Assembly (NCBI RefSeq): GCF_963676685.1 | Contig: NC_092357.1 | Location: 28,458,001 to 28,522,000 of the forward strand | Source of the DNA: Mytilus edulis | Taxonomy: Eukaryota | DNA: 64,000 nucleotides | Direction: 5' to 3' | Shown here: piece by piece, positions 2,206 to 60,692 of the stretch | How the letters are laid out: each line of letters opens with the position of its first letter | Numbering within the stretch: position 1 is the stretch's first letter | Made by a program: the position numbers and the translations under genes | The notes under the pieces: model-generated | The model's database searches: none | The model's input: the letters and a program-made list of their open reading frames with translations, nothing else | Told to the model about the DNA's origin: nothing

Positions 2206-2304
2206 CTTGTCTTTCAAATTGAGATCAATACCACCGTGGATTAATAACTCGACGATATCTGTTTTATGGTTTGATGTTGAGTGGTGAAGTGCAGAGCTAC
2301 CATC
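2206..2304 (-). CDS. Ankyrin exon 11 (99 nt): DGSSALHHSTSNHKTDIVELLIHGGIDLNLKDK
   Basis: Canonical ankyrin motif; acceptor ...tctcaacag, donor gtaacc. Confidence 0.92.
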
Positions 2305-8300: not shown

Positions 8301-8394
8301 TAGACTGATATATTTTTTTCCTTATCTGCATAGCATCGTCTTTTCTAGACGGTCCTTTGCATAGTGTTTTAGCTCGTTGGTCCTTTTTTTAGAC

Positions 8395-8456
<62 letters not shown>

Positions 8457-20400: not shown

Positions 20401-23400
20401 ATTAAAGCATTATAGGTTAAAGTACGGCCTTCAACACGGAGCCTTGGCTCACACCGAACAACAAGCTATAAAGGGCCCCAAAATTACTAGTGTAAAACCA
20501 TTCAAACGGGAAATCCAACGGTCTAATCTATATAAACAAAACGAGAAACGAGAAACACGTATATATTACATAAACAAACGACAACTACTGTACATCAGAT
20601 TCCTGACGTATTTGTTCTATATTTACAGAAGTGCAACATGACGAGACATTCATTTCAAAATTCACAGTTTATGCAGTTTATCTGAATTAATCATATTAAT
20701 CATGAAATGTCAGAGATTAATATATGATTACACATTCTTTACTGTGAATTATCATTCACTTACCCTATCTTTAATGTTGAGTTTTATTCCACCCACAATT
20801 AGCAAATTGGCGAATTCTGTAAGTTTTTTAAATGCAGCTTGGTGAAGTGCAGTACTACCATTCTGCAAAGATAAAACATAAAAAAGTTAACATAGTATTT
20901 AGGAATAATAGAAATGCGAAAGATAACGTAAATCACTCTGATGCATCGAAAACTAACGGAGAGTTGTCTCATTGAAAATCTTACCAAATCTTCTGATTTC
21001 TATTGTTAGTGACACGGCAATAAAACTAGAGACTCTTAAGAGCCTGTGTCGCTCACCTTGGTCTATGTGCATATTTATTGGTAACGGTAATGTTATTACT
21101 ACCACTGGGTTGATGCCTCTACTGGTAGACTGTTTGTTCCCGATGGTATCACCAGCGCAGTAGCCAGTACTTCAGTACTGGCATGGAAATACCATTTTTT
21201 TGTATTTATTAAAATAAGCTGTTACAAAATGTTAGAAATTATTATAAATAAAGGAATATATATCCCTCATTCAAAGCTTTGATTCCTTTCACGGATTTGG
21301 CTATACTTTTTTGACCTTATGGATTATAGCTCTTCATCTTTCATATAAGCTTTGGATTTCTTATATTTTGGCCACGAGCATCACCAAAGAGACATGTACA
21401 AAATGTTTTGTCGAAATTGCCATCTGGTGAAGTAAAATTGGTAACGTTAATGTTATTAAACAAATGGCACAGATGGATTCATGTCAAAATTGAGTTTTGG
21501 TGATAGTGATGAGTGTTTGTAGATATAACATTTTTTCTGAGCACTCTTGCTGTGAACAATATATATATCTACAATGCAATTTGCCCAGTAGTCAGAGAGA
21601 AAAACATGTTGTAAAAATTTACCAAAATTTACATTTATGAAAATTGTTAAAATTGGCTATCAAGGACAATAACTCCTTAAGGGGTCAATTGACCATTTTG
21701 CTCATCTTGACTTATTTGTAGATCTCAATTTGCTGAACATTATTGCTGCTTTAAGTTTATCTCTATCAATAATATTCAAAATAATAACAAACTAGAGGCT
21801 CTAAAGAGCCTGTGTCGCTCACCTTGGTATATGTGAATTAAACAAAGGAAGCAGACAGTTCATGACAAAATGGTGTTTAGGTGCTTGTGATGTGTTTGTA
21901 CATCTTACTTTACTGAACATTCTTGCTGCTTACAATTATCTCTATCTATAATGTACTTGTCCGTATAGTTTCATTGGAAAATGTTAGTAAAAATTTACAA
22001 ATTTTATGAAAATTGTTAAAAATTGATTATAAAGGACAATAACTTCTTAGGGGGTCAATTGAACATTTTGGTCATTTTGATTTATTTTTGAGTCTTAAAT
22101 TGCTGTACATTATTGCTGTTTACAGTTTATCTCTATCTATAATAATATTCAAGATAATAACCCAAAACAGCAAAATTTCAAATTTAGGGGCAGCAACCCA
22201 ACAATGGGTTGTCTGATTCATCTGAAAATTTCAGGGCAGATAGATTTTCACCTGATAAACAATTATACCCCATGTCAGATTTGCTCTAAATGCTTTGGTT
22301 TTTGAGTTATAAGCCAAAAACTGCATTTTACCCCTTTGTTCTATTTTTAGCCATGGCGGCCATCTTGGATGGTTCGCCGGGTCAAAAAACACAAACTTTA
22401 AACTAGATACATCAATGATGATTGTGGCCAAGTTTGGATTAATTTGGCCCGGTAGTTTCAGAGGAGAAGATTTTTGTAAAAGTTAACGCCGGACGACGGA
22501 CGACGACGGACGACACCGGACGACGGACGCCAAGTGATGAGAAAAGCTCACTTGGCCCTTCGGGCCCGGTGAGCTAAAAACGGTTAAATTTCATTAAAAT
22601 TACCTATTCAGGAGCAGTAACCCAACAACCGGTTGTCCTATTCATCTGAAAATTTCAGGGCAGATAGATCTTTACTTGATAAACAATATTACCTCATTCA
22701 GAGTTTTAAGCCAAAATCTTTATTTTACCCCTATGTTCAATTTTAGCCATTGCGACCATCTTGGTTGGCTGGTTGGGACATCGGATACATTTTTGAACTA
22801 GATACATCAATGATGGTTGTGGCCAAGTTTGGTTAAATTTGGCTCAGCCAGTAGATACAGAGGAGGAGATTTTTGTAAAAGTTAACAGACGACGACGGAC
22901 GACGGACGACAAGTAATGAGAACAGCTCATTTAGCCCTTTGGGCCAGGTGAGCTTAAAAGCAAATGACAACGAAGAAAGAAACGGGGAACTAAACACAAA
23001 ATTAAACGATGACTATAGTATGAGCATCACGATTTGCGTAACGTTGCACGATGTAGTCTCGACATTTCAGAAGGAATATAATTTTCAGAGGAATATGAAA
23101 AAATGACACTAGGGATAGTCTTAACAAATCAAATGTTGATTAAACTAACAATGTGTGTAAACGTTAAAATAATGAAAAGTAATCCGTGCTTAAAAGAGAT
23201 ATGAAGATTTATTCATCCAAGAAAAGTCATCTATAATACTAAAATTGCGAGATCCAATTTGTCAGCCGTCATCGCGTAAAAACGATGAATCAAAGAATTC
23301 AACTTTATATATAAATAATATAGTACTATGCTGTTGATTTAAATTACACCACTCCAGGCCCTTTTGTTTTCCACGTACAGGCGCACCCCCTAAACGGTGT

Positions 23401-32400: not shown

Positions 32401-35400
32401 AACTGAAATGCCTGTATTCACATAGTTATTTAGCATGAAATGTCATAGATTGACATGTGATTGAACAGTCTTAATTGTGATATTACCCACTTACCCTATC
32501 TTGAATGTTGAGATCAATACCACCCTTAATAAGCAGCATAGCGAATTCTTTAAGCTCTTTCAATGCAGCGTAATGAATAGCAGTATTACCATTCTGTATA
32601 GATAAAACATACGTATTGTTCAGAAAGATTTTGATAATGAAAGAAAGTTGAAAAAGATGAAAGATATATAAAAACTCATATTTTGAAAATAAACATAGAA
32701 TGCCATGACAAAAACAAAAACAAAAATGAAATCAGTGCTCAAAACACATTATACATGTAGAAGACTACAAATAGAGCAAAATGAGTCATACTAAAATCAG
32801 TGGTGACTTGATGTGCTCCTGAAGGGTAGGCCGATCCTGTTCTATTTGTGGCACCTGTCATTTTGATAATGTAAGTATGATAAACTCCTAAAACCACGCT
32901 TAGCATTTTTTGGAATTGATTCCAGTTTCGACCACAGAAGACTCATCATTGATATTCAAGACGAAGTTGAAGAGCATGTGAAAAATATTGAAAGGAACAC
33001 AAACAGGCGTTGATTTTTTTTTTAAATCGCTAGCTCGTTATTGAGGAGAGGAGGAAATAAATGTGATTAAAACAATCAAACAAAACTAATCAGCTATTGT
33101 TCAAATAAAAAAAACCTTTTCTAGATTGAATATTAAAGACTAGAGAATGGGAGAGAGGAATGTGTTAGAGAGACAACAACCCGACCAAAGAACAGAACAT
33201 TAACAGGAACACAAGTTAGACTTTACTACAGGGAAATACTTTGCATCCAGAGTTGAATATAATAAGCACCGCTCTAAGTGTTGACATTTGAAAATAAATA
33301 GCAGTGCTAATGAAATAGGATACAATTTATATGAGACTTCATAGTATACATAACGCAGTTTTAGCCGTTAAAGGAATTCATAAAAGAACGTGCATTGTCT
33401 TCATTTACAGAAGTGCAATCAAGATGGAATGAAAAAGAGATTATATAGAATGGCACAAAAACTGGTTTATCTTCAAAGATTTCTATGGAAAAAAAAATGC
33501 ATGGTTTATCCGATAGGCATGTACACAAAGAAAATTCAAAGCATATGCACATGTGTAACTTAGATTGATAAAATGTGCCTATATTTTCTCCTTTCTGTCA
33601 TGAAAATCTATAAGTTCTAAATGATTACTCTTGGGTGTTTTTGTCCTGTTGAAAACCCATAAGAAAACCAAACTGCATTTTAATTTGACCGTGGCATAAA
33701 GATATAAGCTGCAGAAACCAATACAAATAAAAATAGAGCATTCCTTCTAAAAAAATTACTTAGTATTTCACTCTCATGAACAAATAATTTTTCAGCAAAT
33801 TTGAGACATCAGTGAGATATATAAGATTCATAAATATTTTGTTCAGAGACGTTCTGGTATCCATATACATCATATATGTTCTACGGTGTATTCATTATGA
33901 TTCGTTGAATATTACTACGAACGCGTGTGCAGGGATTTGGAAAAAAAGGAAACCAAATACCATCGACTGCAAGTTTTCCTTCATCCCTGAAAAATACCCA
34001 CGAACATAAATGAATCCACAGTATATATTCATGTCATATAGACATAGTTGAGGAATGTTATCAGTATAGAACACATGCAAATTTTCAAATTTGAAGAAGG
34101 GGTAGTGCAGAAATTTAGTGTATGTCTCAACACTTAAACTTTTAAAACATTAAACATGATTAAATATAAGAAAAAGATTGCTATGTGTGTTACATTTTAG
34201 TGTTATGTCGTTGTTATATTTAATTCCCTCGGTTTGAGTTTGTTACCCCGATTTAGTTTTTTGTGAGTTTTGAACAACGGTTTACTACTGTTGCCTTTAT
34301 TTATTCAGCACCTATTTACATTTTGACAATTGATAAAATAGTAGTGCGTGTAACTTTCCATTCCAGCATATTATTTTCTACAAAATTTCATTGTCAAAGT
34401 AAAACAGTAAACTTATGAGTTTGAATGTCCCTCTTGTACCTTTCCCTTCTCTATTTTAGCCGTAAGAGGAGTGATAAAGGAAACTTGCATTGTCTATATT
34501 CAAATGTGTGCAATATTCACAGTTGACGCAGTGATAATGAAGAGTGTCATGTCCTGTCAATATGGACAAATGCTTTGTCATTTTCAATTTTAGTTTATCA
34601 TCCACTTACGCGATCTTGAATGTTGAGATTAATTCCACCGTCAACAAGCAATTTGGCGAATTCTGTAAATTCTTTAGGTGCAACTTCGTGAAGTGAAAAT
34701 TTTTCTTTCTGTACAGATAAACCATTACAATGTGTACATATTATTGGATAATAATAAAAAATCAAAGATAGCAAATGTATATCATTTATATTGAAACTTT
34801 AATGTCGAAAACTAACTGACAACTTAAAGCCATTTAAAAAAAATTAAACACGAAGACAACAAAAACAGTGCAAAACCAAATGTAAAAGACACAAATAAAG
34901 CAATACAAACCTCGCAACAACAGTGCTACTCATATAAAAAAGCATATTCATTAGATCTTACTCCAAATGTGGCGCACGTTATTTTGCTTGTGTTAGTACC
35001 ATATACTTTATATATTCTAGGATTCGTGTTTTTTAGGCAAGAAAAGAAAACGAAAGAATCGATCATCAGTGATACCCAGATAAAAAAAAAAGAATTGCAA
35101 AACGTACGAAAAGAAAGAGCATTGATGACACAAAAATGAAATAGCTACATTTGTTTTTAATTTGGTATGTAATTTTACAAGAAAAGAGGTCGGGACTGTG
35201 AATACACGTTTCGAACATATATGTTTTTGTCAGATGGATATTCGATAACGGTCAACAAACTCTTGGTGTTGTCTGTGAAATATTCTAAAGGGAAGATAAA
35301 GGCAAATAAATTCAAATTATGAATAACAAATCAATACGGTAGCCTATCAAAGTATACAACCTTTTAGTCTGTAATTGCAACAGCAATTGCAATGTATGTA

Positions 35401-38400
35401 AGCATTAATTTTTGGCGTCTAGCATCACTGAAGGTTGCATATCAATAGCGGCCTAATCAAATTATGGTAAAGATGTAAAATATAGTTTGGTGTAGATATT
35501 TTGTCATTGTTTGTTCAGTTTACGTATTGATTTCAAGATGTAATCTTTATGTTCATCGCAAAGCTATAAGGGTAAATATTTCAAATAATAATACAAATTT
35601 ACAGATGTCCAAATGAATTCGATTCTAGGTTTTTTTTACGAAACACATTGCGAAATGGCAAAGTTTCAACTCTAAAGCAATTCCTATGAAAATTGAACTG
35701 TCTATATTTGCGGATGTTCAACCTATAGAAATATCAAATTTGAAACGATTCCATTTGATGCAATGATTGTTGTTTGTTTCATGTCATGAAACAGATTGAT
35801 CAACTATAATTAAGCATCCACTTACCTGTTCTTCTATATTGAAATCAGTAAGTAAATAGAAGAATTCAGATGCAGCATGGACAAGTGCAGTACTTCCTTT
35901 CTGTACATATACAAAATAATAATGTTAACACTGTTTCTAACATTTGTCTAATGATAAAAGAATAGTGAAATACATAAAAGGTTCTACAAAGGGATATACA
36001 AACTCATTTTACAAAACGACATACGATTAAAATATAGTGAACAAAACAACATAGAAGACTGTGTAATAAGAACCTCACCAAATTGCACATGTTTTTTTGG
36101 TCATGTTATTACTATTAACTCATCTTATAAACCACGGTTCACTCCAGATGCAAGCTTGGTTAACAACATACTCATCACTTATGATCCGTTATTTAAAAGT
36201 ACGAAGATAAAAGTATTGATGAAATAAAATTCAACAACACATAAAAACAAAACAAACCCCGTGATACCCAAAATTGAGTAGATCATATAACACTGCACTG
36301 TTTATTATCATCACATAGTACAGTTTTGCTGGTATGAGATATTTAGAATCTTAATCCTGTAAACGATTGTATATCAATTACGACTACAAGACAAAACATT
36401 CAGTACTTAAGATGATTTGACATGTATAAATACTGTAATATGCCAAAAAAGAAATAACCCGAAATTATGACATAGTTTTAAAAGAAATTGAAGTATATAC
36501 AAACCTTCCATACACTATGTAACTTTTTAAAAGTTTCACAGTTTTAATCATAAAACCATTTCTACCTCTAACTGTCTTTATTAACAGCAATGCGGTCTGA
36601 TGAAATAGTCATTTTCAAAATTTACAGTTGAATCAGATTCAGTAATATTAGTATATATCATGTCATGTTATGTCAAAGGCCGCGGACATATGGTTTAATA
36701 TTCTTAATTGTGATTTATCTTTCACTTACCGTATCTTGGATGTTGAGATCAATACCACCCTTAATTAGCAACTTAGTGAATTCTTTAAGCTCGTTCAATA
36801 GAGTTTTGGAAGGTACAGATCTGTCTTTCTGATAAAAGATAACAATGTTAACATAGTTTTTAACAATAAAAGAAATATGAAAAATAGAAAAGGAATATTT
36901 ATGTCGAAAACAAAATAAAACAAACAAAAATAGCTGCTGATCTGATAACACTTTGAAAGGTTAGCTTCGAATTTTTGTAATACTTTTAGCAATTTAAAAG
37001 TTTAAAATTAATTAATTTTATGGCCAAGAGGAAGATTGTGAAGTGATGCATTCATTTCCGTGAGATAAATTTCAATAATATATGACATACTAGACATTTT
37101 CTAGCATTTTATTGTGTATACTTAAATGATTTGATTTATCTACAATATACTTATATAATTATAATGTGTGAAATATGCCTGGAGGTAGTATCCTTCAATT
37201 ACACTTTCAAGTTAATTAACCGATCAAAAGAAACAGGCAAAAACTGTTCAGTCTTTATTAACAGCTAAGAAATATAAAGGTAAAAGTAAAAAAAAACCAA
37301 AGAGAACTCTCTCGGATATGTCAACAGATTATAATACTAGTATGGATTCATCAGGGATAATAAATTTAAAAAAAGACCAAGATGAAAGGAGTAATGGCTG
37401 ATTTTGGCCTCAAATTTCTAGCCTCACGGTCATAAAACCTTCGAGCATGATTTTTGTACTCAGACTCGAAAATCAACCAATCAAATTGCTGGATTTCATG
37501 TTTCGAGCATGATTTTTGTGCTTCGAGCACTGAGCAAAGTTTTATACCTTCAAGACCAGGTTCATCGAATGAAATATTCTGGAAACTTTTTCAACACTTT
37601 AGTGTCTATTTCAATTGATTCATTTCGTTTATGTGAAAGTTTTTAACTGATAAAGTCAATAAAAACGCCCTGAATCAAGCTTAACTATGAAAAATCTATC
37701 AAATATGCAAAAAAATCGTTACTTTTCAGATGTTTTCTGTCAAAAATAAAAGTGGCCGAAACCATGTTCATCCTCAACCTTTATATATGGTATGTTTTAT
37801 CATCAAATACAACTTACATTTAAATATTATGAATAACCACGAATGCGGCCACTTTCATTTAAGAGGAACACCGTCTAAAATTTAACTAAAATGCAAAAAT
37901 TGTGAAGATGTCAGTAATTTATCATGACTTAATGATAATAGTACACGATATATGTGCATTATATTGTCAAAAACAGCCAATATTCTTGAAGCAGAAGCAT
38001 TATATTTTCACAATTTTGTAAAACAGCTATATTTTGGAGCCGAAAAATGGCCCTACTGAACCTATTACTTTAGCCTCAGGGATGTTACAACAAAATATGA
38101 TCTGAATGAAGTAACAAAAGACCTTTTCAAAGCAGCTGACCTATAGAATATGGTTACTGGTATTGTGGGAAATTTTTAAGTTAATTTGAATCTATTTTAG
38201 ATAAAAAAGATGAACGAAAAATTGAATAAAATCCAAACAGAAATGCAAGAAAAGGTGGAGCCTTATCAATTGAAAATGAACATTTGAGAGAAAAGATAGA
38301 TCAAAATGAAGTCAAAACAATATCAATATATCAAATAGAAAAAAAATGTCTGAAACAACCGAAATTGCTAAAGTAACAAATATATGAAGTGATTACAATG

Positions 38401-47400: not shown

Positions 47401-50400
47401 GCTAGATTAAAACTGACGTAGAAAGGTAACACATGGCCACCGAAAGCTTTACTTTTGAAGCCCATGTGGTCGTGTGGTCTAGCGGGACGACTGCAGTGCA
47501 GGCGATTTGGTGTCACGATATCACAGTAGCATGGGTTCGAATCCCGCCGAGGGAAGAACCAAAAATTTGCGAAAGCAAATTTACAGATCTAACATTGTTG
47601 GGTTGATGTTTAGAAGAGTTATATATACATCTATATATATGACTTTTCGTTCTGATTCGAAATTTGTATTGCACTTTACCCTTTTTTGTTTTTTATTAGT
47701 ATGATTATTATCACTGGTTGTGATATATGGGTGTTTACGGAAGAAGAATGGCCTTATAAATGACAAACAAAGTATATAAAATAGAAACATGAGAAACAAA
47801 CGACAACTACTGGATTTCAGGCTCCTGGCTTACAACAGGCACACACATACATAATGTGGCAAATTTAAACATGTTATCAGGATCACAATCCTCTCCTTAA
47901 CCTAGGACAGTAGTTTTACATAACAACAAAATAAAAAAATACTGAGACCAGTTGAAAAATGCTTAAGATATATACGAAAATAAATACATCTTCAAAATCA
48001 CAGGTTGCACTGTCCGGGTACTTGGACACCCTTACAACAAAGCGACACTTAATACAGATCTGGTATTTGAAAGCTAAAACAAATATAAAATATCAATTAG
48101 TACATTTTACTATCAAATGAATTTAGAGTAAAAACGTCATAAACAGTCAGAGAAGAACATGACCTTGGGTAATGTCAAGACACATATTACAGATCAATGA
48201 CAGTGCAACACTTTCTGTATATGATTCCTCTTAATAAGAGCCCAATAATGTGAGGCTTGTAAATTTGAGTAATATTATTTTTTGTTCTTTCCTGATCCCG
48301 GATTCGACCTAATGCTACTGAGATATCATGGCACCAAATCACCTTGCACTGTGCCTGATGCACTAGACCATTTAACCACCAAACCTCTACAATAATAAAA
48401 CTTTCGGGATAACTGTCCTCGTCAGTTTTAATATAGCCTCATATCACAGCACATGATATATCAGACATGAAAATGGAATTGTTATAGATCAGCTGAAATA
48501 TCTATTATACAGTATCGTACAAACTAATGAAAGATGCGGTTTAAGAAATAGTTATATTATAAATATGTCTGAAGCAGTCACGGCTCTACAAAACATATTA
48601 TCAACTAATGGGGAAAAAAATCATAACAGTGTGTTTTGTTAAATTTATATATCAAATCACATTCTGCATCGGTTATTAAAAGCACTTTTTTAATATATCT
48701 ATATGTGTATTCAAGATTATTGGGAATATTTTTTTTCTCTTTATAGTCACTAAACCCAATAGTATATTGTTGTTGGGTGTTTTTATCAAGTCAAAACCCC
48801 ATAAGTAGAATGTAACACTTGAATGTGCTTTTTGTGACAGCAGCATAGCAAATAACAAGCTAAAGATACAATATACAAATGTAAAAAAAAGCAGATTTGA
48901 GAAACAGAAGATTAAAAAAAACAAACTGAGAAAAATCTGAAACTGAAAAATTAATCTGTAAGGGTATGCTTTTATTTTTACAACGGCCTTTAAAATTTGT
49001 AAAATAACATATACTCTGCTTTAAAGATATTCAAAAACAAAGATTTTAGCAGACATTTCTATAAAACTTTAAGTGAATTTATATATCAAACTGATTCTTC
49101 ATGCATATAAATTTTGCATATCTGACTTTTTGTTAGCCTTCTAGGTCATATATTAGCCAAAGTGTGTTAGATATATACTTAAATATTATATTAATGTAAC
49201 AAAACTTCCAAACTAACAATTTAAAGAAAACATTGTGAACTTGTATAGATAAACAGTATTACAGTAGTAGGGTGTGACCTGGAAACTATGGAGGCATTTA
49301 ATTCGTGAATGTTGGAATGATTGACTACTCCACATTAATAGTATTCTGTAATGTTTCACATTGTTACCAGCATGGTTTCTAGAGACTTCATGTAAAAAAA
49401 ACATTCACGAATTGATAGTCGACAATAAATAAAGACTTCTGATTTAATAATACTGCTATGAGTTAAAAGTGTTTTTTACACATTTACCTTTAAAAAATAT
49501 GTATATATCGGTTTCACTTTTTACACTTTTCAAAAACTACGCCTCTTTCATTGGATATGTTAAATTTGTAGACATTGTGTTTCGTTGACGTATTGGTTTC
49601 CTGATATCACCTCTATCTTTTACCTCATAGAGACATAAAATTAGACTATAAATGCATTTGAAAAACGGTAAAGTTGAATCTTTATGAATATCCAGAACGA
49701 TCCGAGTAGTACAATGTAGTTAAAAAATAAAGTAAGTCTATAAACTCTTCTAAAAAATTAAAATCACAAAAGACAGAACTAAGTTTGAGGCACTAAAATG
49801 TTTAAATTATGAGGCACTAAAATGTTCAAATTATGAGGCACTAAAATGTTCAAATCATGAGGCACTAAAATGTTCAAATTATGAGGCACAGTCCTATACC
49901 TTGACTTTTGAAAAACATTATATTGTAGATGAAATGTCCATTTTCTCAGTTCAACGAAACTTCATAGTAATATATAGTTGACATAGTAAAAATACTTCCC
50001 GTGACAATTGTCTACATTTAAAAAAGTGCGATCTAAAGAAATATTCATTGTCAAAATTTGAAATTCAAACTTAACCACGAAAAAGGATAATTGTACATAT
50101 GAACTCTCAATCATAAGCTTTTTAAATATAAAACCGGTTAAAATAGCATTGCCAATAATTAAAAAGGTACAAAATGGAGAGAAATTTCAAAATTCACATT
50201 AAATTCAGTTATATTGATATTTTTTGTGTCATATTGAAGCTTGAATTTTGAAGTTAGATTTATTATCCACTTACCTTGTTTTTTTCATTGATATCAAAAA
50301 CCAACTTCGCAAATTCAAATGCAGCGTGGTGAAGCGAAGTACAACCTTTCTGTACAGATAAAATATTACAATTTCAACATGATTCAGTAATTAATGAAAA

Positions 50401-53400
50401 GAATATGTAAGATTAGTTAGTGATATTCAAAGCAATTTGTCGAAAATAAACTGTCGAAAATGTCATGGCAAAAATGAAAAAAAAAAACGACGACGCCGCA
50501 GAACCCTGATTTAACCTTAGAACATATGTAATTTCATGAGTTATCGCATAACGGTCAACAAAATATCTGAATTGTGCATGAACTTTTTGAATGGATGATA
50601 ACTGAATGTGACACATATTCTTTTCCTCATGGTAGTACTATTAACTTATCAATCTATATTTTACTCCAGATGCAAGCTTGGTTCACAATCGACTCATCAC
50701 TGATGATCACTTTAATCAAAAGTACGAAGTTAAATGGTACGGAAGAGTCAATATTCAAAAAGGTCCAAACTCACTGATATATTGAAAATAAAGATGTCAT
50801 CTTTGAGAGAATGTAACTGAGAATACAACCATTGCAACTAATCTGTTGTCACTCTGTCCACAACGTACAAAACAACTCGTGATTTCGTGTGTAAAATGTT
50901 CGAAGAGATTTCAAAGGAATTCATATATGTTATCATAGGAGAAAAACAATAACGAATACTACAATGAGTAACAAATCAACCCGGTAGCCAATATCAAAGT
51001 TTATTAACAGCTTCGTATTAGCACATACTACAATTTTGTGAGTGGGTATATTTCGAATTATAATTTTGTTATTTGTATCTTACAATCTATAAAGGTTTTT
51101 TTGGGAGAGGGAGTGCATAATTTTAGTATATTTATGAACGTTCAGAAGTTTGGGGCATATGACACATACAAATACAAATTATTCTTACTAATCCCATTGC
51201 CCGTAAAAGAGCAGAATAATGACAAATCAATTACGACTACCATACAAAACATACAATACTGAACTTGATTTGATATGAATAATTATAATAAGCTTTAATG
51301 TTAGACCAAGCTTTGAAAAAAGAGGCACATTACACATTTTCTATACAATATGTAACATTGTGCACAAATCATTGTAAAATGTCACACAGTGTTAATCCTT
51401 CTAAAATCTCTAATTACAGCAATGCGATCTGAACATATATTCATTTTCTAAACTTATAGTTTATTTAGTTAAGGAAGTTTGCTTGTCATGTTATGGGATT
51501 TTGGTCAGATTTACGGAATTCTCTGTTTTTTTTCCATTTGAAAGCCTTAAAAAAATGCCCTTTGACCCTACTTATCATTTTACAAATCTTTTACATGTAT
51601 TATGATAAGTTATCTGATAAAGCTTTGAAAAGACAAAAGAGAGTATTTTCCCGCCAAAATTGAAATATGCACATTGACCTATATATATATATATATATAT
51701 ATATTTTGTTGCTCATTTTGGTTCCTTTATTAATCCCCTATCAACATAAACTAGTGATTTAAAAAAATAATTATTTGGAAACTGAGAAGCGAACTCCCTC
51801 AAACAAGATTATGTACCGTCATGTCAGAGACTGACATAGGATTAAACTTACCCTATCTTGAATGTTGAGATCAATACCACCCTCAATAAGCAACTTGGTG
51901 AATTCTCTAAGCTCTTTCAATGCAGTGGTATATGGTGCAGTACTATCTTTCTGTATATATACACAATAACAATGTTTAAATAGTTTTCATTTATAAACGA
52001 AATTTGAAAGATAACAAATGGATATGTATGTCGAAATAAATTAACAAAAAAAAATACAAAGTGCAGATCACACAACATGGAAATAAAGGACTAAAAAACA
52101 AGTATCCCGCTAATTCCCGGTGATGTCACATGTTTCTGAGTAGATCCATCTCCACATGTAGAACATGTAAGTAAAATAAAATAATTACATATCACATGAT
52201 TCAATTTTAGTATGCCAGACGCGAATTTCACACACAAAAGACTCTTTATAAATGATCCAATCAAAAATATATACAAAGGTCAAAGAAATAAATATATAAA
52301 ATGCAAGAAAGACTTAAAAAGTTATAAAATATGTGATTGAACATGAGTATACACTTGTATGGTGTTATCATACACGCATGATACGACCGTATGTGTATGT
52401 TCATGGTAATTGACACGTTTACTTTGAATACGTAACTCTTTATAAGGTATGACCCTGTTAGTTGTCACATCATTTAAAAGACGCTACTTAAGAAATAACT
52501 AGATTAACTAAATTCACGCTGTTAATTTTACTCACTAGTCAAAGCTGTAGTAAATACATTTGATAACAATGGTCATTACCAATTTGTTATCACGAGTAAA
52601 TGGTTACATATGAACCTCGAAAAACATCTTCCAAAATATTTAAATGAACTTTTACACAACAAATCAACTCGTTTACTATCTGATGAAAAAGCGTTCAATT
52701 TGAGAGCAAAGGGTGTTTATACAAAAGATCGTGCACAACCAAAACGCTTAAGTCACTTGTGAAAGTAAATGTCACCCTAAGAATACAATCAACAATACAA
52801 CTAGGGATACAACCAACCCGTGGCACCAACAGTCAATGTTTTTGTATCATTTAAATTGTAAATTGTACATTTTGCTTAACCATCATTAGGTGTTTTTTTT
52901 AGATACAGTTTATTGTTATACATGTAGTAATGCAAAGTTTACATACTGAATATCTAGAAAAATACCTGTATGTTCGAAATACTTATATGGCCTAGTATAT
53001 CTGGAAAATATTATCAACTAACAAAACAAAAATACAGTCCTTGGTCGGTGTAAACTTCTCACTAACACACCATTACACCATTTACCATACACCCTTTCAT
53101 CATAAACCTTGTGCCATTACACCATACACGTTACACCTTTGCACCATACACTTTACACATTAAACCATACACCATTCCCCTTCTTTCTACACGATCCAAA
53201 ATTACCGATTATGCAAATAAATTTAGAAGAAAGCGTGCGACTACAAAAATACGTTTATTTTTTTGTTTTAAAAAACGAATTTTGATCACAATATTGTAAA
53301 TTCATGAATAAAATTCAGACCTTCATGAGCATGGTTATATAAACAATACAGATAAAACATATACACATATATTTGTAAATAAAAATAAGTCCATGATCTG

Positions 53401-56400
53401 CCTTTTTGAAAAAACGATATATTAAGTACTGATCATGTTTAAAGTGTAGCGTAAATCTTTCGAACTTTGTTTTCAGATAAATCGATTAACAATGCAAAAA
53501 ACTAATGGTTGTTGATTATATAAAATAACAACAACAGTACCAAGCTATTGAATGTAATACTGGTGTACATGGTGTACAGTTAACCAGTCAAGTCGAACTC
53601 GGAAACTCGAGTACAAGTATACTCGGTTTTGCGAGATAACGATCCCGTCATGCAATAATTTGTCATGTTTATGGCCAGTGTAGTATAATTAATATTTCTT
53701 TTTTCCTGCCCAAGTCAACAGTGCAAACATGAATGTCCTTTTTTTCAAACAACTGAGTCATCAACAGAAATCAGTTGTTTGCATATCTCAGACTGGCTCC
53801 AATATAACATGTTTTATTGTCTCAGGAAAAAATTATCTAAACGCAACAACCAAATCTGAGCATATTTTAATATGTAAATAGGAGTTTTTTACAATCCGAA
53901 AGATTAAAATAAAATGAACTTCGGTTTCATCCAGTGCAATATCGTACACCATTCATTCATATAATTCGTTACACTATCACACAATTCCTCATACACCAAT
54001 ATATCATTTCTTTTACCCCACACACCATATCAACATACACATGATACACATTCTACCATTGCATTATACACCATACACCATTACACCATACACTTTAGTT
54101 TTGAAAGTTTACACCACCAAAGGGCTGTAACAGTAAGTTTCGTTGTATTTAGCTATCAAATCAGCATATATTCACATTATGAATAGGTCATGAAAAACAA
54201 AGTTTTTTTTTTAATATCGACATTTGCCGTCACGACTAATGAAAAGTGCATACAAATGTATGTTTACTCTTTCCAGTAATCGAAACCAATAGATTCTTGA
54301 TTGAAAGTGTTTTTTTTTTATTATAGAAAACCCAGCAGCAAAAAGTTACACATTAATCATATGGCAAAAATCAAGGGTATATTTTCAGATGATTTGAACC
54401 ACGTGACTTTAGCCCTTTTGAATAAATTACTTCCCTTAGTGTAGAAATGAATATACTATTAACTTCCTCTAGCGGATAAATCCAAAAATGTTGTGTAATT
54501 CTAAGCGAAAATGCTGAAAAAATGGCTTTTCACGAAATGGTGAGGTTGAATACGTCATGTTTAAAAAAAACTTGGCAGAAAACGAAGAAATGCATGTACA
54601 TTTGTGTAAGTTGAAAAATATTTTAAATTTAGAATTCAACCTACAAGGTGTTTCCCTGTATGCGAACAAATCATGTACAATATCTTGAAGATATCATGAT
54701 TTCTATTTTGAACCTTGCTTTTCCACGATTCTGTACGATCGTTCGCTATTGAACATAGCAATAAAACAACGGTTTCACTTTCTTCACTTTCTAAAAACTA
54801 CGCCTCTTTTATTGAATACTAGTATTCATAGATAATTCGTTTCGTTTACGTACTGGTTTCTTAAAAGTTTCCTGTCTTTTCCCACACAGAGACTTAAATT
54901 TATCATATAAAGGCATATAAAAAGCAGTAAAAATGTATTCCAATGAATATCAAAAATAAATGGAGAGGCTACAATGTGGATCAACATTAAAGTGAGTTTT
55001 TAAAATCAAATTAGTTTGAGGTACTTAAATGTTTAACTTATGACGCACATTCCTACTTATAGACAAATCATGCATCTAAGACTAAATTATCAATCCGGAC
55101 ACATCCAACAGGCAATGGATTTAGTGTAAAGAATTCATAAACAGACAGAGAAAAAAATAACCTAGTGCAATGCCAAGATACAGGTATCGACATATTGTAG
55201 ATACATGAATGTGTATAAATGTATATAACATACAAGAAATATTTAGTTTGCTTTAAATTTACTGATAAAAAAATCAATGTTTATACCCAAAAAATCAACG
55301 ATATCATTACAGTCTAATGAGAAACATTTGTGGCATTTTTTAGGGATAATAAATTGCCAATAATTACAGAAGAGCAAACTGTTAAGATGGGCAATTTCAA
55401 AATTCATATTTAATACAGTTATATTGGAATTTGTTGTGTCACGTTAAAGCTTGATTGATTATTATTTTAAGTTTGCATTTTGATTTATTATCCACTTACC
55501 TTGTCTTTTATATTGATTTCAAAAAGCAACTTTGTAAATTCAAATGCAGCGTGGTGAAGTGCAGTACAACCTTTCTGTACAGATAAAATATTACAATGTT
55601 TATATGATACAGTAACTAATTGAAAAAAAGGTGCAAGATTTAACAGAAATGTCTTATTAGTGGAGTGACCAAGCAAACAATTTTTTCAACTTTAATGGAA
55701 CACCCTACCTGCAAGCTAAACTATGACTTTTTGGAAAGAAAAAAAGTTTATTCTTTAAATTTTGCGTGGTCGTAGAATTGAAATATGGTGCAAGTCTTTT
55801 TAAAATGAATCAAAGGTTAGTGATTGAGTTTTTTTCACTATTGTCAATTTATTTCATCAGAGGTTATAAAAAGTCTCGAAAAAATATTAATAAAATGTTA
55901 CTAAACAAGAAATTCATAATGAAATAAACTGTGACATTTCATTTTCAAATTAAATTTGAAAATAATGAAACCACCAAATGCATATTTCATAAAATTCAGA
56001 CTAGCAACAAAATAGGAGATGGACCATTCGAATCTCAATTAATTTTTTACATCGCATGTACTTGTAAAGGTATATTTCTGAATTTTACGGCATTTATAAA
56101 AAGAAACGAAGTCAATTTGGTTTTTGTGATGTATATGTATTACCAGTCACAAACATTTCACAAGGCAATTAAATAAAATGAGTTTAATGATGGACTAAAG
56201 TTTCAGCGCATATTCTAACTCTAGGATTTTTTAGGTATGGTTTTATGTGCCTTTTCCTTACAAAATCACATATGGATCGCTTAGACAGATTGGTGGCATG
56301 GGGTATTTTAACAAATAAAGGGCATGACAACTTTCGAAAACCTGACATCAGTTATCGTTTTCATCGTCGTATACTTCCGATATTGCTCGGTGAGTTAAAT

Positions 56401-59400: not shown

Positions 59401-59799
59401 AAATCATGAGATTATCAAAGTTATCTAAATTACAAATGTTGTATCCACTTAGTTAAAAACTTAGTTAAAATTTCGCTAAACTAAATGAAAATTGACAAAA
59501 ATTGGAAAAAAATAAAAAAAATCCTTGTTTTACATTATGAATAAACAATTAAACTGTGTATAAATGCAAATTCGTATGTCAAAAGACACATGTAACTTTT
59601 TTCGCAACTTCATAGTTTTAACCATTAAAGTCATTTTACCAGTTCGTTAGAATAATTGTCTTTATTTGAATCATACCGCAATTATCTATCATCAACTTAC
59701 CCTATCTTGAATGTTGAGATCAATACCACCCTTAATTAGCATCGTGGTGAATTCTCTAAGCTCTTTAAATTTGATGCTTGGATGTACAGCTCCATCTTT
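2206..59799 (-). CDS. Partial multi-exon ankyrin-repeat protein gene: join of 59701-59799, 55500-55574, 51852-51950, 50275-50349, 36730-36828, 35826-35900, 34610-34708, 32495-32593, 20764-20862, 7729-7827, 2206-2304 (1017 nt, 339 aa); 5' and 3' ends not seen
   Basis: Eleven mutually homologous minus-strand segments, each bounded by an AG acceptor and a GTAA donor, all multiples of 3, open in phase 0. They translate to ankyrin-like units (GxTALHxAA...LL..GG.DLN..D). Joining them into one transcript is inference. Confidence 0.85.
2944..3083 (+). ncRNA. Retrozyme fragment with type I hammerhead ribozyme motif (2995-3040), mutated in stems III and I
   Basis: GCGTCA-CTGATGA-GTC-TTTTGTA-GAC-GAAA-GACGCGTC-TTGCGT: intact CUGAUGA and GAAA core plus stem II. 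The other copies read GCGCGTC-TGGCG after the GAAA position. Confidence 0.85.
3085..4953 (-). mobile_element. Diverged inverted copy of the composite element at 9488-10949
   Basis: 3085-3997 is reverse-complementary to about 10127-10890, and 4790-4953 to about 9505-9672, with blocks in the same order. Confidence 0.8.
5644..6428. mobile_element. MITE with G/C-run subterminal repeats and TTA TSD (PIF/Harbinger-type), with an internal insertion
   Basis: TTA|GGGGACAACCATTTGATATTCT-G(n) ... C(n)-AGAATATCAAATGGTCGTCCCC|TTA. Confidence 0.8.
7729..7827 (-). CDS. Ankyrin exon 10 (99 nt): NDLTALHTATRSEHTQMVRMLIQRGCYLNDQDK
   Basis: Canonical ankyrin motif; acceptor ...ctcattttag, donor gtaaac. Confidence 0.92.
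8396..8452. repeat. (TA)n microsatellite; others at about 1868-1894, 8607-8629 and 51680-51703
   Basis: Directly visible. Confidence 0.98.
8628..9345 (-). mobile_element. tRNA-derived (SINE-like) repeat, about 1.5 tandem units of about 455 bp plus a short inverted terminal piece
   Basis: Reverse complement has A-box TGGTCRTGTGG-TCTAG and B-box GGTTCGAATCC. Units start at about 8628 and 9084; inverted piece at 9293-9345; flanked by (TA)n. Confidence 0.75.
9488..10949. mobile_element. PIF/Harbinger-type non-autonomous element with TAA TSD, carrying nested MITEs (about 9840-10118 and 10465-10737)
   Basis: TAA|GGCCGTGTTCACA ... TGTGAACACAGCC|TAA. Confidence 0.8.
11070..12293 (-). mobile_element. 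Harbinger-derived non-autonomous DNA transposon with an N-terminal transposase remnant
   Basis: TIR CCCCAGTCGCATTAGACCACGATCGCACTACG / CGTAGTGCGATTGTGGCCTAGTGGGACTGGGG. Minus strand about 11453-11560 reads PWLAAERRLLFCHYDQLMTEL*IEDEPSFFNFSRMP, resembling Harbinger transposase N-termini (family call from recall). Confidence 0.7.
12367..16029. mobile_element. TIR-bounded DNA element of about 3.7 kb containing a BEL/Pao fragment and degenerate internal repeats
   Basis: Perfect 23-bp inverted termini ACCAAGCATTACATGTAGACGGG (12373) / CCCGTCTACATGTAATGCTTGGT (ends 16023), with weaker inverted similarity extending about 200 bp inward. Confidence 0.8.
12780..14270 (+). mobile_element. Degenerate, internally deleted BEL/Pao LTR retrotransposon pol (RT and integrase fragments)
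   Basis: WYLPLFGVYQSKKPDQIRGVFD at about 12964-13029; integrase core TRAYHIELIEEISSS...RRFADLRG...SNRGTHFIGA in ORF 13521..13766; many stops and frameshifts. Confidence 0.85.
16720..20185 (+). mobile_element. Degenerate Academ-like DNA transposon with long (several hundred bp) TIRs
   Basis: About 16755-17250 is inverted relative to about 19690-20160. Interior encodes PRNWQNFLKDDDNNKELSSF, RTVDTDVV...LWFAFGIGKNFRYLSIH (XPG-like region) and a C-terminal Cys-rich finger at about 19340-19435. Starts with TAG. Superfamily call from recall. Confidence 0.65.
20345..20607 (+). repeat. Abundant interspersed repeat (aagatgtggt...gccaatgagacaact...); related copies at 44925-45750, 47750-48200, 55050-55300 and 28980-29180 (-)
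   Basis: Mutually alignable copies within the window; family not assigned. Confidence 0.75.
20764..20862 (-). CDS. Ankyrin exon 9 (99 nt): NGSTALHQAAFKKLTEFANLLIVGGIKLNIKDR
   Basis: Canonical ankyrin motif; acceptor ...tctttgcag, donor gtaagt. Confidence 0.92.
21077..21458 (+). ncRNA. Second-family retrozyme monomer (360-bp period) with a degenerate hammerhead (about 21376-21429)
   Basis: 22-nt terminal direct repeat attggtaacg(g/t)taatgttatta at 21077 and 21437. Hammerhead-like GCATCA-CCAAAGA-GAC...GTC-GAAA-TTGCATC-TGGTG with the CUGA core mutated. Confidence 0.7.
21789..22580. mobile_element. Helentron/HINE-like element (inner copy)
   Basis: aaactagaggctctaaagagcctgtgtcgctcacc ... agctcacttggcccttcgggcccggtgagctaaaaa; inserted in an A-run of the outer copy. 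Confidence 0.8.
23230..23666 (+). mobile_element. Non-autonomous Helitron
   Basis: A|TC 5' end; imperfect subterminal hairpin cccgcgatatcacgag then CTAG|T 3' end; no TSD. Confidence 0.7.
26348..26510 (+). mobile_element. Penelope-like element fragment (RT to GIY-YIG linker)
   Basis: FITQYHANTGNLQTVMRNDWHFIQDNPQFTNLF...TIAFKRNRN in ORF 26263..26496 resembles the PLE linker (TYHP...W..L...IAFRR.KNL). Confidence 0.65.
26960..28040. repeat. Satellite-like array of about 195-bp units (about 5 copies) followed by an inverted unit
   Basis: Motif tattgatcttactgaatcc..ggtc..tgtagtttggtgtattgctgtcaaa at about 26983, 27178, 27368, 27574 and 27766; reverse-complement copy at about 27858-28040. Confidence 0.85.
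28085..28362. repeat. Degenerate array of about 10-bp units (ggtcgagact)
   Basis: Repeated gtcgagac / gtcaagac / ttaagac units. Confidence 0.75.
28487..29882. mobile_element. MITE-like element with GGCCACA(C/A)CAATTT termini and nested insertions
   Basis: taa|GGCCACAACAATTTGATTCCTT ... AAGAAATTAAATTGGTGTGGCC|caa. Confidence 0.6.
30926..31418. repeat. Recent tandem duplication of about 245 bp (30926-31170 and 31171-31418)
   Basis: Near-identical adjacent copies with a few substitutions and one 3-nt indel. Confidence 0.95.
31398..31757 (-). ncRNA. Near full-length retrozyme monomer with the hammerhead 3' half deleted
   Basis: Reverse complement matches the 2944-3083 and 44120-44257 family (gagcgtcactgatgagtctttt), but the GAC-GAAA...GTC segment is missing. 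Short terminal redundancy (gactaa..tagt.ta) at both ends. Confidence 0.8.
32495..32593 (-). CDS. Ankyrin exon 8 (99 nt): NGNTAIHYAALKELKEFAMLLIKGGIDLNIQDR
   Basis: Near-canonical 33-aa ankyrin repeat; acceptor ...ctatacag, donor gtaagt. Confidence 0.92.
34610..34708 (-). CDS. Ankyrin-like exon 7 (99 nt): KEKFSLHEVAPKEFTEFAKLLVDGGINLNIQDR
   Basis: Acceptor ...tctgtacag, donor gtaagt; open in phase 0. Confidence 0.85.
35826..35900 (-). CDS. Short ankyrin-like exon 6 (75 nt): KGSTALVHAASEFFYLLTDFNIEEQ
   Basis: Acceptor ...atgtacag, donor gtaagt; same 25-codon length as exons 2 and 4. Confidence 0.8.
36730..36828 (-). CDS. Ankyrin-like exon 5 (99 nt): KDRSVPSKTLLNELKEFTKLLIKGGIDLNIQDT
   Basis: Acceptor ...ttttatcag, donor gtaagt; lies inside ORF 36715..36951. 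Confidence 0.85.
37386..38070. mobile_element. Probable non-autonomous DNA element with a nested short MITE (about 37425-37560)
   Basis: Imperfect inverted ends (agtaa...attttggcctcaaa / ttggagccgaaaaat...ttact); inner piece ggtcataaaac ... gttttatacc. Confidence 0.45.
39039..39950 (+). mobile_element. Degenerate L1/Tx1-clade LINE ORF2, APE endonuclease domain (possible ORF1 remnants upstream from about 38100)
   Basis: MGSVKILSVNCQGLGD...IYCIQDTHF, RGVAVMFNN, YGPN, ICGDFNLVL and SDHS motifs in order, with stops and frameshifts. Confidence 0.85.
40001..40975 (+). mobile_element. 5'-truncated Penelope-like retroelement: RT C-terminal half plus 3' tail
   Basis: FGGRVFEQTIGIP, TNCAP, FRYIDDVL (40162-40185), YPI...KDTT, KLYDKR, ISQLIRYS; tail gggtgccacatg...cttacccttccggagcacctgagatcaccc. 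Confidence 0.85.
40985..41824 (+). mobile_element. Continuation of the L1/Tx1-like ORF2 (post-RT region); may resume after 43127
   Basis: RLLGVNI, FLWN and GGLKMIN...KVTWIK motifs, degenerate. Confidence 0.7.
41825..43127. mobile_element. Helentron/HINE-like element with two internal tandem units of about 500 bp
   Basis: Same ends as 21789-22580; internal units start at about 42055 and 42558. Confidence 0.85.
43060..44877. repeat. Two abutting inverted-repeat pairs: A 43060-43256 / A' 43781-43969 and B 43968-44086 / B' 44759-44877
   Basis: Near-perfect reverse-complement matches read directly. Confidence 0.92.
44120..44257 (+). ncRNA. Retrozyme fragment with hammerhead motif (44213-44257) carrying a G12A core mutation
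   Basis: GCGTCA-CTGAGGA-GTC-TTTTGTA-GAC-AAAA-TGCGCGTC-TGGCG. Confidence 0.8.
47377..47640 (+). mobile_element. tRNA(Leu)-like SINE-type repeat; other copies at 46248-46380 (+) and 48255-48600 (-)
   Basis: GCCCATG-TGGTCGTGTGG-TCTAGCG...GGGTTCGAATCCC (47460-47545); acceptor stem does not pair as in a real tRNA. Confidence 0.75.
49787..49889 (+). repeat. 24-bp tandem repeat, about 4.3 copies (gaggcactaaaatgttcaaattat)
   Basis: Directly visible; single-copy in the paralogous module at about 55018-55048. Confidence 0.93.
50275..50349 (-). CDS. Short ankyrin-like exon 4 (75 nt): KGCTSLHHAAFEFAKLVFDINEKNK
   Basis: Acceptor ...tctgtacag, donor gtaagt; paralog of 55500-55574. Confidence 0.85.
51852..51950 (-). 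CDS. Ankyrin-like exon 3 (99 nt): KDSTAPYTTALKELREFTKLLIEGGIDLNIQDR
   Basis: Acceptor ...tatacag, donor gtaagt; open in phase 0. Confidence 0.85.
53035..54127. mobile_element. TIR element with TA TSD and (ACACCAT)n-like subterminal repeats
   Basis: TA|CAGTCCTTGGTCGGTGTAAACTT ... AAGTTTACACCACCAAAGGGCTG|TA. Confidence 0.75.
55500..55574 (-). CDS. Short ankyrin-like exon 2 (75 nt): KGCTALHHAAFEFTKLLFEINIKDK
   Basis: Acceptor ...tctgtacag, donor gtaagt; lies inside ORF 55488..55676; GxTALHxAA motif. Confidence 0.85.
56850..57004 (+). ncRNA. Degenerate retrozyme/hammerhead fragment
   Basis: GTGTCC-CTGATGAATGA-GTC-TTATGAA-GAC-GTA-CGCGCGTC-TGGCGT; core has an insertion and GAAA is lost. Confidence 0.7.
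57990..58203 (+). mobile_element. Solo Penelope-like 3' tail (same family as 40765-40975); related pieces at about 7180-7425 (+), 32700-32875 (-) and 62690-62935 (-)
   Basis: Aligns directly to 40765-40975. Confidence 0.85.
59701..59799 (-). CDS. Ankyrin-like exon 1 (99 nt): KDGAVHPSIKFKELREFTTMLIKGGIDLNIQDR
   Basis: Acceptor ...tgcacag, donor gtaagt; open; C-half nearly identical to the other 99-nt exons. Confidence 0.8.
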
Positions 59800-60508
59800 C
59801 TGTGCAGATTAAAGTTTACAATGTTTTAATAGTTGAAAAAAATGAAAGATAACGAAGGGATATCTATGTCAAAATCACATGACTGTGATATACTCACAAG
59901 AGCTCGAAATGTTATGCGTTTATGAGTTAACAGGTGAGATAATTCCAGAATTCATATTTCGTACGCCAGACGCAAACTTCGCACACAAAAGATTCTGCAG
60001 TAATACTCATGTAAAATTAAGATATATTCAAAAAGGCCAAAGAAAGTCGAAAATCAAAGAGATTATGAATTCAGAACAAATACGAAACCATTGACTATGT
60101 CTGAATAAAATAAATTAAAAAAAAACAACAACACACCAATAACAAAAAAATCGAAACGTTTCACTGTAATTACACATGTATCAATAAATAATGATGATTC
60201 TAGATAACCTTAATCAATTTGATAATGATGTACTAGTAACTCAATCATATCAATCTAATCTGATTAAACTATTACAATCTTTAAATTTATACAATTAAAC
60301 AACTGTTGAAATTGAACACAAATACTCTTGTTTAATTCTAAATTTAAAATATAACGTAGGTCAGTTTGCTATTTACAACATATTCAGCAAAGATTATACT
60401 TTAGATAAAAATAGTAATTTGCGAAATAATCTGGTACAATTCCAAAATTTTTAAGCTGATGACAGTTAAGATGTTACATCAGCAATGTAATGGGAAAACA
60501 AATCTCAC

Positions 60509-60692
60509 NNNNNNNNNNNNNNNNNNNNNNNNNNNNNNNNNNNNNNNNNNNNNNNNNNNNNNNNNNNNNNNNNNNNNNNNNNNNNNNNNNNNNNNNNNNN
60601 NNNNNNNNNNNNNNNNNNNNNNNNNNNNNNNNNNNNNNNNNNNNNNNNNNNNNNNNNNNNNNNNNNNNNNNNNNNNNNNNNNNNNNNNNNNN
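60509..60692. other. Assembly gap (184 N)
   Basis: Run of N. Confidence 1.

What the first reader, a model, noticed from the sequence alone, without database searches (positions are those of the whole stretch)
2206..59799. Hidden 57-kb ankyrin gene built from one-repeat-per-exon, phase-0 cassettes
Seen: 11 tiny exons, largely missed by the ORF track, all with AG/GTAA borders, lengths of 99 or 75 nt, phase 0-0, no stops and near-identical splice contexts (KD/KG/NG start; xDR/xDK end). Known: 99-nt one-repeat exons are typical of ankyrin genes, and symmetric exons can be skipped or duplicated without frameshift. Inference: any subset of exons gives an in-frame protein, so this array could be a combinatorially spliced or copy-number-variable recognition protein that is still expanding by tandem exon duplication.
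Basis: partly seen in the sequence, partly recalled or inferred. Interest (0 to 1): 0.75.

Follow-up and report, generated by a model that had tools for sequence, protein, structure and literature searches.

The report
Mussel ankyrin-cassette gene, probably ROCO sensor
Eleven tiny exons, each coding one ankyrin repeat, form the locally duplicated and partly degenerate binding end of a mussel gene that most likely belongs to an expanded family of sensor-GTPase (ROCO) proteins; mix-and-match splicing is possible but not shown.

Summary
In detail: exactly 11 homologous minus-strand exons (8 of 99 nt, 3 of 75 nt), all AG/GTAA, phase 0-0 and stop-free. They are under selection: neutral simulations never kept all nine related copies intact (0 of 5000 in each of three runs).

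This is not a classical ankyrin. The closest proteins are Mytilus ankyrin-Roc-COR (ROCO) proteins, but no Roc, COR or N-cap exon lies in the window, so membership is inferred.

E1-E9 appear to descend from one cassette and include a two-exon unit present three times. Only 4 of 11 exons pass the Pfam cut-off. Three lack 8 residues, and four have lost part of the TALH motif while keeping codons 12-33 conserved.

Positive selection is not established. 'Still expanding' is unsupported: the closest pair is 88% identical. Combinatorial splicing is untested, and no docking-site signal was found. Two M. edulis models of a relative differ by whole repeats.

Closest system: brown-algal LRR-ROCO genes with one repeat per exon. 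Verdict: new variant of a known kind.

The parts
59701..59799 (-). E1, 99-nt ankyrin-repeat exon; TALH motif lost, codons 12-33 conserved; possible compensated frameshift in codons 6-10
   Evidence: frameshift inconclusive: gapped alignment gains 16 against E9 and 12 against E8, but 4 against E5 and 0 against E3; ten control pairs gain 0-8
55500..55574 (-). E2, 75-nt shortened repeat (two 12-nt deletions, on either side of helix 2)
   Evidence: Pfam Ank E 0.015, below cut-off
51852..51950 (-). E3, 99-nt repeat, TALH degenerate (Pro at the Leu position that is invariant in 45 of 45 family repeats)
50275..50349 (-). E4, 75-nt shortened repeat, 88% identical to E2 (closest pair)
   Evidence: E2+E4 support 98/96 in the exon-plus-flank tree
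36730..36828 (-). E5, 99-nt repeat, TALH lost
35826..35900 (-). E6, 75-nt shortened repeat, most diverged of the three
34610..34708 (-). E7, 99-nt repeat, first third partly degenerate
   Evidence: Pfam Ank E 0.065, below cut-off
32495..32593 (-). E8, canonical 99-nt ankyrin repeat
   Evidence: Pfam Ank 30 bits, cut-off 21.1
20764..20862 (-). E9, canonical 99-nt ankyrin repeat
   Evidence: Pfam Ank 24.7 bits
7729..7827 (-). E10, canonical repeat of a different, older type
   Evidence: Pfam Ank 32.1 bits; long branch outside E1-E9
2206..2304 (-). E11, canonical repeat; 24 of 33 residues identical to repeat 3 of XP_071148783.1 and XP_052080672.1
50275..52056 (-). Two-exon unit E3-intron-E4, collinear with E5-intron-E6 (35826-36932); E1-E2 is the probable third copy
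   Evidence: three collinear blocks between introns 3 and 5 at 79-83%; a two-copy block downstream of E2 and E4 at 72%, and one upstream of E1 and E3 at 83%
32672..32858 (-). Decayed copy of a dispersed ~208-bp repeat ending 79 nt before the E8 acceptor; same-orientation remnants before E3 (52060-52163) and weakly before E4, E7, E6, E9
   Evidence: E 1.2e-15 (E8), 8e-7 (E3), 0.029, 0.13, 0.85, 6.9; no hit in that position for E1, E2, E5, E10, E11
60509..60692 (.). Run of 184 N, about 0.7 kb upstream of E1; could hide an exon

Best explanation
The 11 exons are the repeat-coding part of one mussel ankyrin-Roc-COR (ROCO) gene whose N-cap lies upstream of the window and whose remaining repeats, Roc GTPase, COR and death-like tail lie downstream of position 1. 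Shown: the exons, their symmetry, local duplication of E1-E9 including a two-exon unit, and selection for intact frame and splice sites. Inferred: family membership. Inferred from architecture: an intracellular sensor in which the ankyrin stack binds a ligand, the Roc-COR switch responds and a death-like tail recruits signalling partners, probably in immunity or cell death. Diversity comes mainly from germline exon duplication, loss and divergence over evolutionary time. E8-E11 are ordinary folded repeats; E1-E7 are a remodelled extension, still spliced at least some of the time.
For: Top 4 of 150 hits to the exon profile are Mytilus proteins, 3 of them with Roc. Summed exon scores are 594-782 for 8 family proteins against 447-578 for 20 named unrelated ankyrin proteins. 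E9 then E11 match family repeats 1 then 2/3 in the same order, and E1-E9 group weakly (86/78) beside repeat 1. Four irregular junctions in family gene models fall at the same repeat register as the window's exon borders. 70 of 77 Roc-COR hits are Mytilus, 12 of them listed with the same 71.3-Mb M. edulis contig; repeat number runs from 1 to 13 in the 13 of 71 proteins with this repeat type. Neutral simulation: P(no stop) 0.007-0.017, P(all AG/GT intact) 0.002-0.003, both 0 of 5000 in each of three runs. Flank alignments show 20 gaps, only 4 of them multiples of three. Codons 12-33 have omega 0.46 (p 0.008 against 1). Family profile matches LRRK2 and Chlorobium-type Roco structures at E 1e-21 to 1e-12. 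Ank, Roc, COR and death-like domains are enriched in dispensable mussel genes (PMC7653742 Table S52).
Against: No Roc, COR or N-cap sequence in the window: tblastn with 4 and with 71 proteins, an N-cap profile and 49 block profiles gave no credible non-exon hit. One of the best relatives (XP_052080672.1) is modelled without Roc-COR. No database protein matches any exon above 24 of 33 residues, and the searches scored only about 8000 candidates each. Tree support is weak. Overall omega of E1-E9 (0.68) does not differ from 1 (p 0.13). The death-like tail is a lead only: atlas score 0.87, and one profile hit at E 2.6e-4 among 18 proteins that overlaps a Pfam Death domain. No transcript data.
Confidence: 0.65

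Rival explanations
1. Combinatorial repertoire: E1-E9 are alternatively included cassettes (skipped, or chosen one at a time), so one gene yields many binding surfaces, as reported for brown-algal LRR-ROCO genes.
For: All exons are phase 0-0. Four long exons have a very fast first third on a conserved remainder: omega about 3 against 0.34-0.41, p 0.005 or 0.014 with E1 codons 6-10 masked. M. edulis models XP_071150151.1 and CAG2205353.1 share an identical first 109 residues and three further identical repeats, yet one lacks 7 whole repeats in three blocks and has 1 that the other lacks. Precedent: PMC11378527 section 11.
Against: The branch test was chosen after seeing the data and is fitted as well by omega 1 with a 3-4 times faster clock in that third (p 0.38-0.45). 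Site models are not significant (p 0.52 and 0.25). Donors are full consensus GTAAGT in 9 of 9. No docking/selector complementarity: longest match 12 nt against a control 95th percentile of 11 and maximum of 17. No spare, broken or opposite-strand exons. The two M. edulis proteins are predictions and differ by 6-9% in the post-ankyrin part, so annotation or allelic difference can explain them.
Confidence: 0.2
2. E1-E7 are tolerated, slowly decaying duplicates kept only in frame (or mostly skipped); function rests on E8-E11.
For: Codons 1-11 have omega 1.0 overall. Changes hit positions 2, 6, 7 and 9, which are 88-100% conserved in 45 family repeats. The 75-nt exons lose both turns around helix 2 (structural reading from recalled ankyrin anatomy), with pairwise omega about 0.83. 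5 of these 7 exons have no Pfam hit.
Against: No stop, net frameshift or splice loss in 9 of 9 copies. Codons 12-33 stay below neutral overall, though for the TALH-lost branches alone this is not significant (p 0.06 and 0.13). This reading is compatible with ROCO membership and overlaps the best explanation.
Confidence: 0.25
3. The exons belong to an ankyrin-only gene, to another domain architecture, or to more than one gene.
For: No Roc-COR in 64 kb. Three introns of 11.6-13.4 kb. XP_052080672.1 has no Roc-COR in its model.
Against: No cap or terminal exon was found inside those introns. Repeat order matches the start of the family's array. In relatives up to 10 more repeats precede Roc, which would place Roc well outside the window.
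Confidence: 0.25

Closest known systems
Mytilus ankyrin-Roc-COR proteins (XP_071148783.1, XP_071150137.1, XP_071150151.1, CAG2205353.1; ankyrin-only model XP_052080672.1)
   Same: Repeat signature, repeat register, order at the start of the array, and internal duplication of one or two repeats.
   Different: These are automated models with no described function. None of those examined has 25-residue repeats or a ninefold expansion of the first repeat type. Roc-COR is not visible for the window's gene.
Brown-algal LRR-ROCO genes with shuffled exons (PMC3341825, passages; PMC11378527, abstract and sections 9 part 1 and 11)
   Same: N-terminal repeat domain built of one repeat per symmetric exon, probably ahead of Roc-COR; tandem exon duplication; proposed immune sensing.
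   Different: Algal exons are 72-nt LRR exons in phase 2 with reported alternative splicing, positive selection and spare exons on the opposite strand. Here they are 99/75-nt ankyrin exons in phase 0, with no spare exons, selection unresolved and splicing untested.
Classical ankyrins ANK1-3 and other ankyrin-repeat genes
   Same: 33-residue repeat. One-repeat, 99-nt exons are common in such genes (recalled; searches gave no paper stating it).
   Different: Lower exon similarity. Classical ankyrins carry ZU5, UPA and Death domains, which the nearest relatives of this gene lack in Pfam scans.
DAPK1 and LRRK1/2 (metazoan ROCO proteins with ankyrin repeats)
   Same: Ankyrin repeats plus Roc-COR; the family profile matches LRRK2 structures.
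   Different: The Mytilus proteins scanned have no kinase or LRR domain and are a large lineage-specific expansion.
Dscam-type mutually exclusive exon arrays (recalled)
   Same: Tandem array of homologous exons.
   Different: No docking/selector signal, two exon lengths, and relatives carry many repeats in tandem in one predicted protein.

Membership tests
Ankyrin repeat (PF00023) | 33-residue repeat above the curated cut-off | tested here: met
   E8-E11 score 24.7-32.1 bits against 21.1
Ankyrin repeat (PF00023) | Same test for E1-E7 | tested here: not met
   0 of 7 reach the cut-off. The 4 long ones hit a Mytilus-family profile at E 5.5e-9 to 4.5e-6; the short ones score E 0.36, 0.44 and no hit. 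They are ankyrin-derived by DNA homology.
ROCO proteins | Roc and COR domains in the same polypeptide | tested here: inconclusive
   Absent from the window; expected outside it; present in the nearest relatives
Mytilus ankyrin-Roc-COR subfamily | Repeats closer to this subfamily than to other ankyrin proteins | tested here: met
   594-782 for 8 members against 447-578 for 20 others; top 4 of 150 hits
Mytilus ankyrin-Roc-COR subfamily | N-terminal capping segment before the first repeat | tested here: inconclusive
   Best hit in the window E 0.9; may lie upstream or in the N run
Classical ankyrins (ANK1-3) | Conserved repeat series followed by ZU5-UPA-Death | tested here: inconclusive
   Exons score 447-524 against ten named proteins with Ank, ZU5 and UPA domains, lower than against any of 8 Mytilus ROCO-family proteins; ZU5 and UPA exons were not searched for directly
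Algal-type exon-shuffling ROCO system | One repeat per symmetric exon | tested here: met
   11 of 11
Algal-type exon-shuffling ROCO system | Inactivated or opposite-strand spare exons in introns | tested here: not met
   No twelfth copy on either strand
Algal-type exon-shuffling ROCO system | Positive selection on repeat exons | tested here: inconclusive
   Site tests p 0.52 and 0.25; post hoc branch test p 0.005-0.014, lost when the first third has its own rate
Algal-type exon-shuffling ROCO system | Alternative splicing of repeat exons | not testable with these tools
   No RNA data available
Dscam-type mutually exclusive arrays | Docking and selector complementary elements | tested here: not met
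   Exact-match scan within 400 nt of each exon, no excess over control; a simple test that would miss imperfect pairing

The most novel reading that the evidence does not exclude
Mussels have independently evolved an animal counterpart of the brown-algal ROCO repertoire: a clustered family of ankyrin-Roc-COR-death-like receptors whose binding end is assembled from interchangeable 99- and 75-nt exons. Each cassette has a hypervariable first third on a constant scaffold and is included in different combinations between cells or individuals; a dispersed repeat beside the acceptors seeds the duplications. Many annotated 'Roc-COR only' mussel genes would then be models that missed such arrays.
Probability: 0.2. 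Interest if true: 0.75.

Novelty: new variant of a known kind. Interest (0 to 1): 0.42.

Why it matters
Mussels carry hundreds of Roc and COR genes (226 and 273 in PMC7653742 Table S52), enriched in the dispensable genome, and my searches found no description of their function. This locus shows how the probable sensor end of one of them is built and changed, gives exact junctions for a direct splicing test, and suggests that automated annotation under-calls these arrays. One-repeat exons alone are ordinary; the interest lies in the ROCO link, the shortened repeats and the fast first third.

Tried and rejected
Further or broken exon copies: none. Roc, COR or N-cap exons in the window: none credible. 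Other genes: 19 of the 30 longest open frames were scanned and none reached a Pfam cut-off; no Rfam match. The open frame running into the N run gave no usable atlas hit. Site-level positive selection: not significant. Docking/selector pairing: none above control. Recent expansion: rejected, highest exon identity 88%. An internal AG at codon 13 giving 60-nt sub-exons was set aside because it is a GAG acceptor without a pyrimidine tract (inference). Compensated frameshift in E1: inconclusive. The search with residues 1-640 of XP_071148783.1 was swamped by generic ankyrins. The representative-library search gave generic repeat proteins and one extra family member. No structure model was obtained, so the fold of the C-terminal region and of the 25-residue repeats is unmodelled. 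The spliced 339-residue product was not searched as a whole; exons were searched singly or as a profile. No eukaryotic genome or RNA collection was on hand. Paper searches (listings only) showed no study of Mytilus ankyrin-Roc-COR genes or their exon structure; subscription papers and bioRxiv supplements were outside reach.
Full report
Observation. The window is AT-rich DNA (about 32% G+C) with one run of 184 N at 60509-60692. Scans for AG..GT-bounded open segments and tblastn found 11 homologous exons on the minus strand. In transcript order they are E1 59701-59799, E2 55500-55574, E3 51852-51950, E4 50275-50349, E5 36730-36828, E6 35826-35900, E7 34610-34708, E8 32495-32593, E9 20764-20862, E10 7729-7827 and E11 2206-2304. 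The order is (99, 75) three times, then 99 five times. All are phase 0-0 and stop-free; donors are GTAAGT in E1-E9 and GTAAAC/GTAACC in E10/E11. Profiles built from them find no twelfth copy on either strand. Introns are 0.8-13.4 kb. Border and length criteria alone also fit 7 plus-strand and 2 other minus-strand segments, so the case rests on homology.

What the repeats look like. Only E8-E11 pass the Pfam Ank cut-off; E2 and E7 score below it and five exons get no hit. E1, E3, E5 and E7 have changed positions 2, 6, 7 or 9, which are 88-100% conserved among 45 repeats of Mytilus relatives, while their codons 12-33 stay nearly constant. E2, E4 and E6 share two 12-nt deletions, one after codon 11 and one around codons 23-27. 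By recalled ankyrin anatomy these remove both turns that flank helix 2, so a canonical fold is doubtful. No model was obtained.

History. Flanking intron is homologous among E1-E9. E3-E4 and E5-E6 share collinear blocks through the whole intervening intron, and two-copy blocks link E2 with E4 and E1 with E3: a two-exon unit present three times. A decayed dispersed repeat sits in the same orientation 70-145 nt before the acceptors of E8 and E3 (strong) and of E4, E7, E6 and E9 (weak), with no such hit at the other five exons. It was probably copied with the ancestral cassette; a role in unequal crossing-over is conjecture. The closest pair is 88% identical, so there is no sign of recent expansion.

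Selection. If E1-E9 had diverged as non-coding copies, keeping all frames open has P 0.007-0.017 and keeping all AG/GT has P 0.002-0.003; both were kept in 0 of 5000 simulations in each of three runs. The model has substitutions only, and broken copies could have been deleted outright. Of 20 gaps in flank alignments 4 are multiples of three. A codon model gives omega 1.01 for codons 1-11 and 0.46 for codons 12-33 (p 0.008 against 1), and 0.68 overall, which is not different from 1. Site models find no positive selection. The fastest sites are 3, 7, 8, 11, 18, 19, 23 and 33; by recalled DARPin numbering 3, 8, 11 and 33 are on the binding face. On branches leading to E1, E3, E5 and E7 the first third has omega about 3 (p 0.005; 0.014 with five E1 codons masked). 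These branches were chosen after seeing the data, and omega 1 with a 3-4 times faster clock in that third fits as well (p 0.38-0.45). Diversifying selection and patchy gene conversion cannot be told apart here.

Identity. The exon profile's top 4 of 150 hits are Mytilus proteins: XP_071150137.1 (Ank, Roc), XP_071148783.1 and CAG2205353.1 (Ank, Roc, COR) and XP_052080672.1 (Ank only). A fifth, XP_071150151.1, came. Summed exon scores separate 8 family members (594-782) from 20 named unrelated ankyrin proteins (447-578). In a tree of 61 repeats, E1-E9 form one weakly supported group beside the family's first repeat and E11 joins repeats 2/3. A Roc-COR search returned 77 proteins, 70 from Mytilus; 13 of 71 named Mytilus proteins examined carry this repeat type, 1 to 13 copies. 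No Roc, COR or N-cap sequence is in the window, so membership is inferred. The genus is inferred from these hits. The family profile matches LRRK2 and bacterial Roco structures. A death-like C-terminus is a lead only.

Hints of modular use. XP_071150151.1 and CAG2205353.1 are identical over the first 109 residues and three more repeats, yet differ by whole repeats: 7 missing in three blocks and 1 extra. They are 91-94% identical after the repeats. Both are predictions, so skipping, allelic copy number and annotation error all remain possible. Against regulated choice in the window: strong donors, no docking/selector excess and no spare exons.

Mechanism. Most likely (0.65) this is the sensor end of an ankyrin-Roc-COR protein: the repeat stack binds a ligand, Roc-COR acts as a nucleotide switch and a death-like tail signals onward. 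Only the gene anatomy is shown; the signalling steps are inferred from architecture. Supporting context comes from passages of PMC8195603 on AP-GTPase/COR systems and from the enrichment of Ank, Roc, COR and death-like domains in dispensable mussel genes (PMC7653742, passages and Table S52 rows). Rivals are combinatorial splicing (0.2), slow decay of E1-E7 (0.25) and another architecture (0.25); the first two can coexist with ROCO membership, so these figures do not sum to one.

Comparison. It is built like the brown-algal LRR-ROCO genes with one repeat per exon (PMC3341825, passages; PMC11378527, abstract and two results sections). It is not a member of that system: the repeat and phase differ, there are no spare exons and splicing is untested. 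ROCO proteins with immune domains are noted in Aplysia (PMC9334734, passages). PMC8229355 and PMC8683736 (passages) gave general ankyrin anatomy only. Searches listed no study of this mussel subfamily. That 99-nt one-repeat exons are common in ankyrin genes is recalled; searches did not return a source.

Verdict. A real, well-supported hidden gene segment and a new variant of a known kind; interest 0.42. The repertoire reading has probability about 0.2 and would merit about 0.75.

Noticed in passing
window 16751-20164: Nested inverted repeats (five arm pairs, 77-88% complementary) framing about 3.4 kb in intron 9; looks like a decayed foldback or terminal-inverted-repeat transposon. The inner 143-codon frame has no Pfam match above cut-off.
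   Followed up: partly
window 13491-13766: 91-codon frame that reads like a decayed Pao/BEL retrotransposon integrase (recalled resemblance; no Pfam support).
   Followed up: partly
window 43060-44881: Two young inverted-repeat pairs, 180 nt and 123 nt at 98% complementarity, in intron 4.
   Followed up: no
window 21455-22960 and 41819-43128: A composite repeat family present in introns 8 and 4 at up to 92% identity over 713 nt; independent insertions or a newer exchange between introns.
   Followed up: partly
window 26958-28026: 195-nt tandem array (4.5 copies) with an inverted copy beside it.
   Followed up: no
window 60503-60508, minus strand: The bases right after the N run read like a splice donor (GTGAG), and an open frame of 52 codons runs into the run from upstream; an exon may be hidden there. 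The atlas gave no usable hit.
   Followed up: partly
P0384-P0447: Most Mytilus Roc-COR models close to this family have no ankyrin repeats, and many share one contig length per species, suggesting a gene cluster. Some models may have missed arrays of tiny exons.
   Followed up: partly
P0002 residues 141-308: A relative shows its own internal duplication of a two-repeat unit (34 plus 33 residues), so unit duplication recurs in the family.
   Followed up: partly
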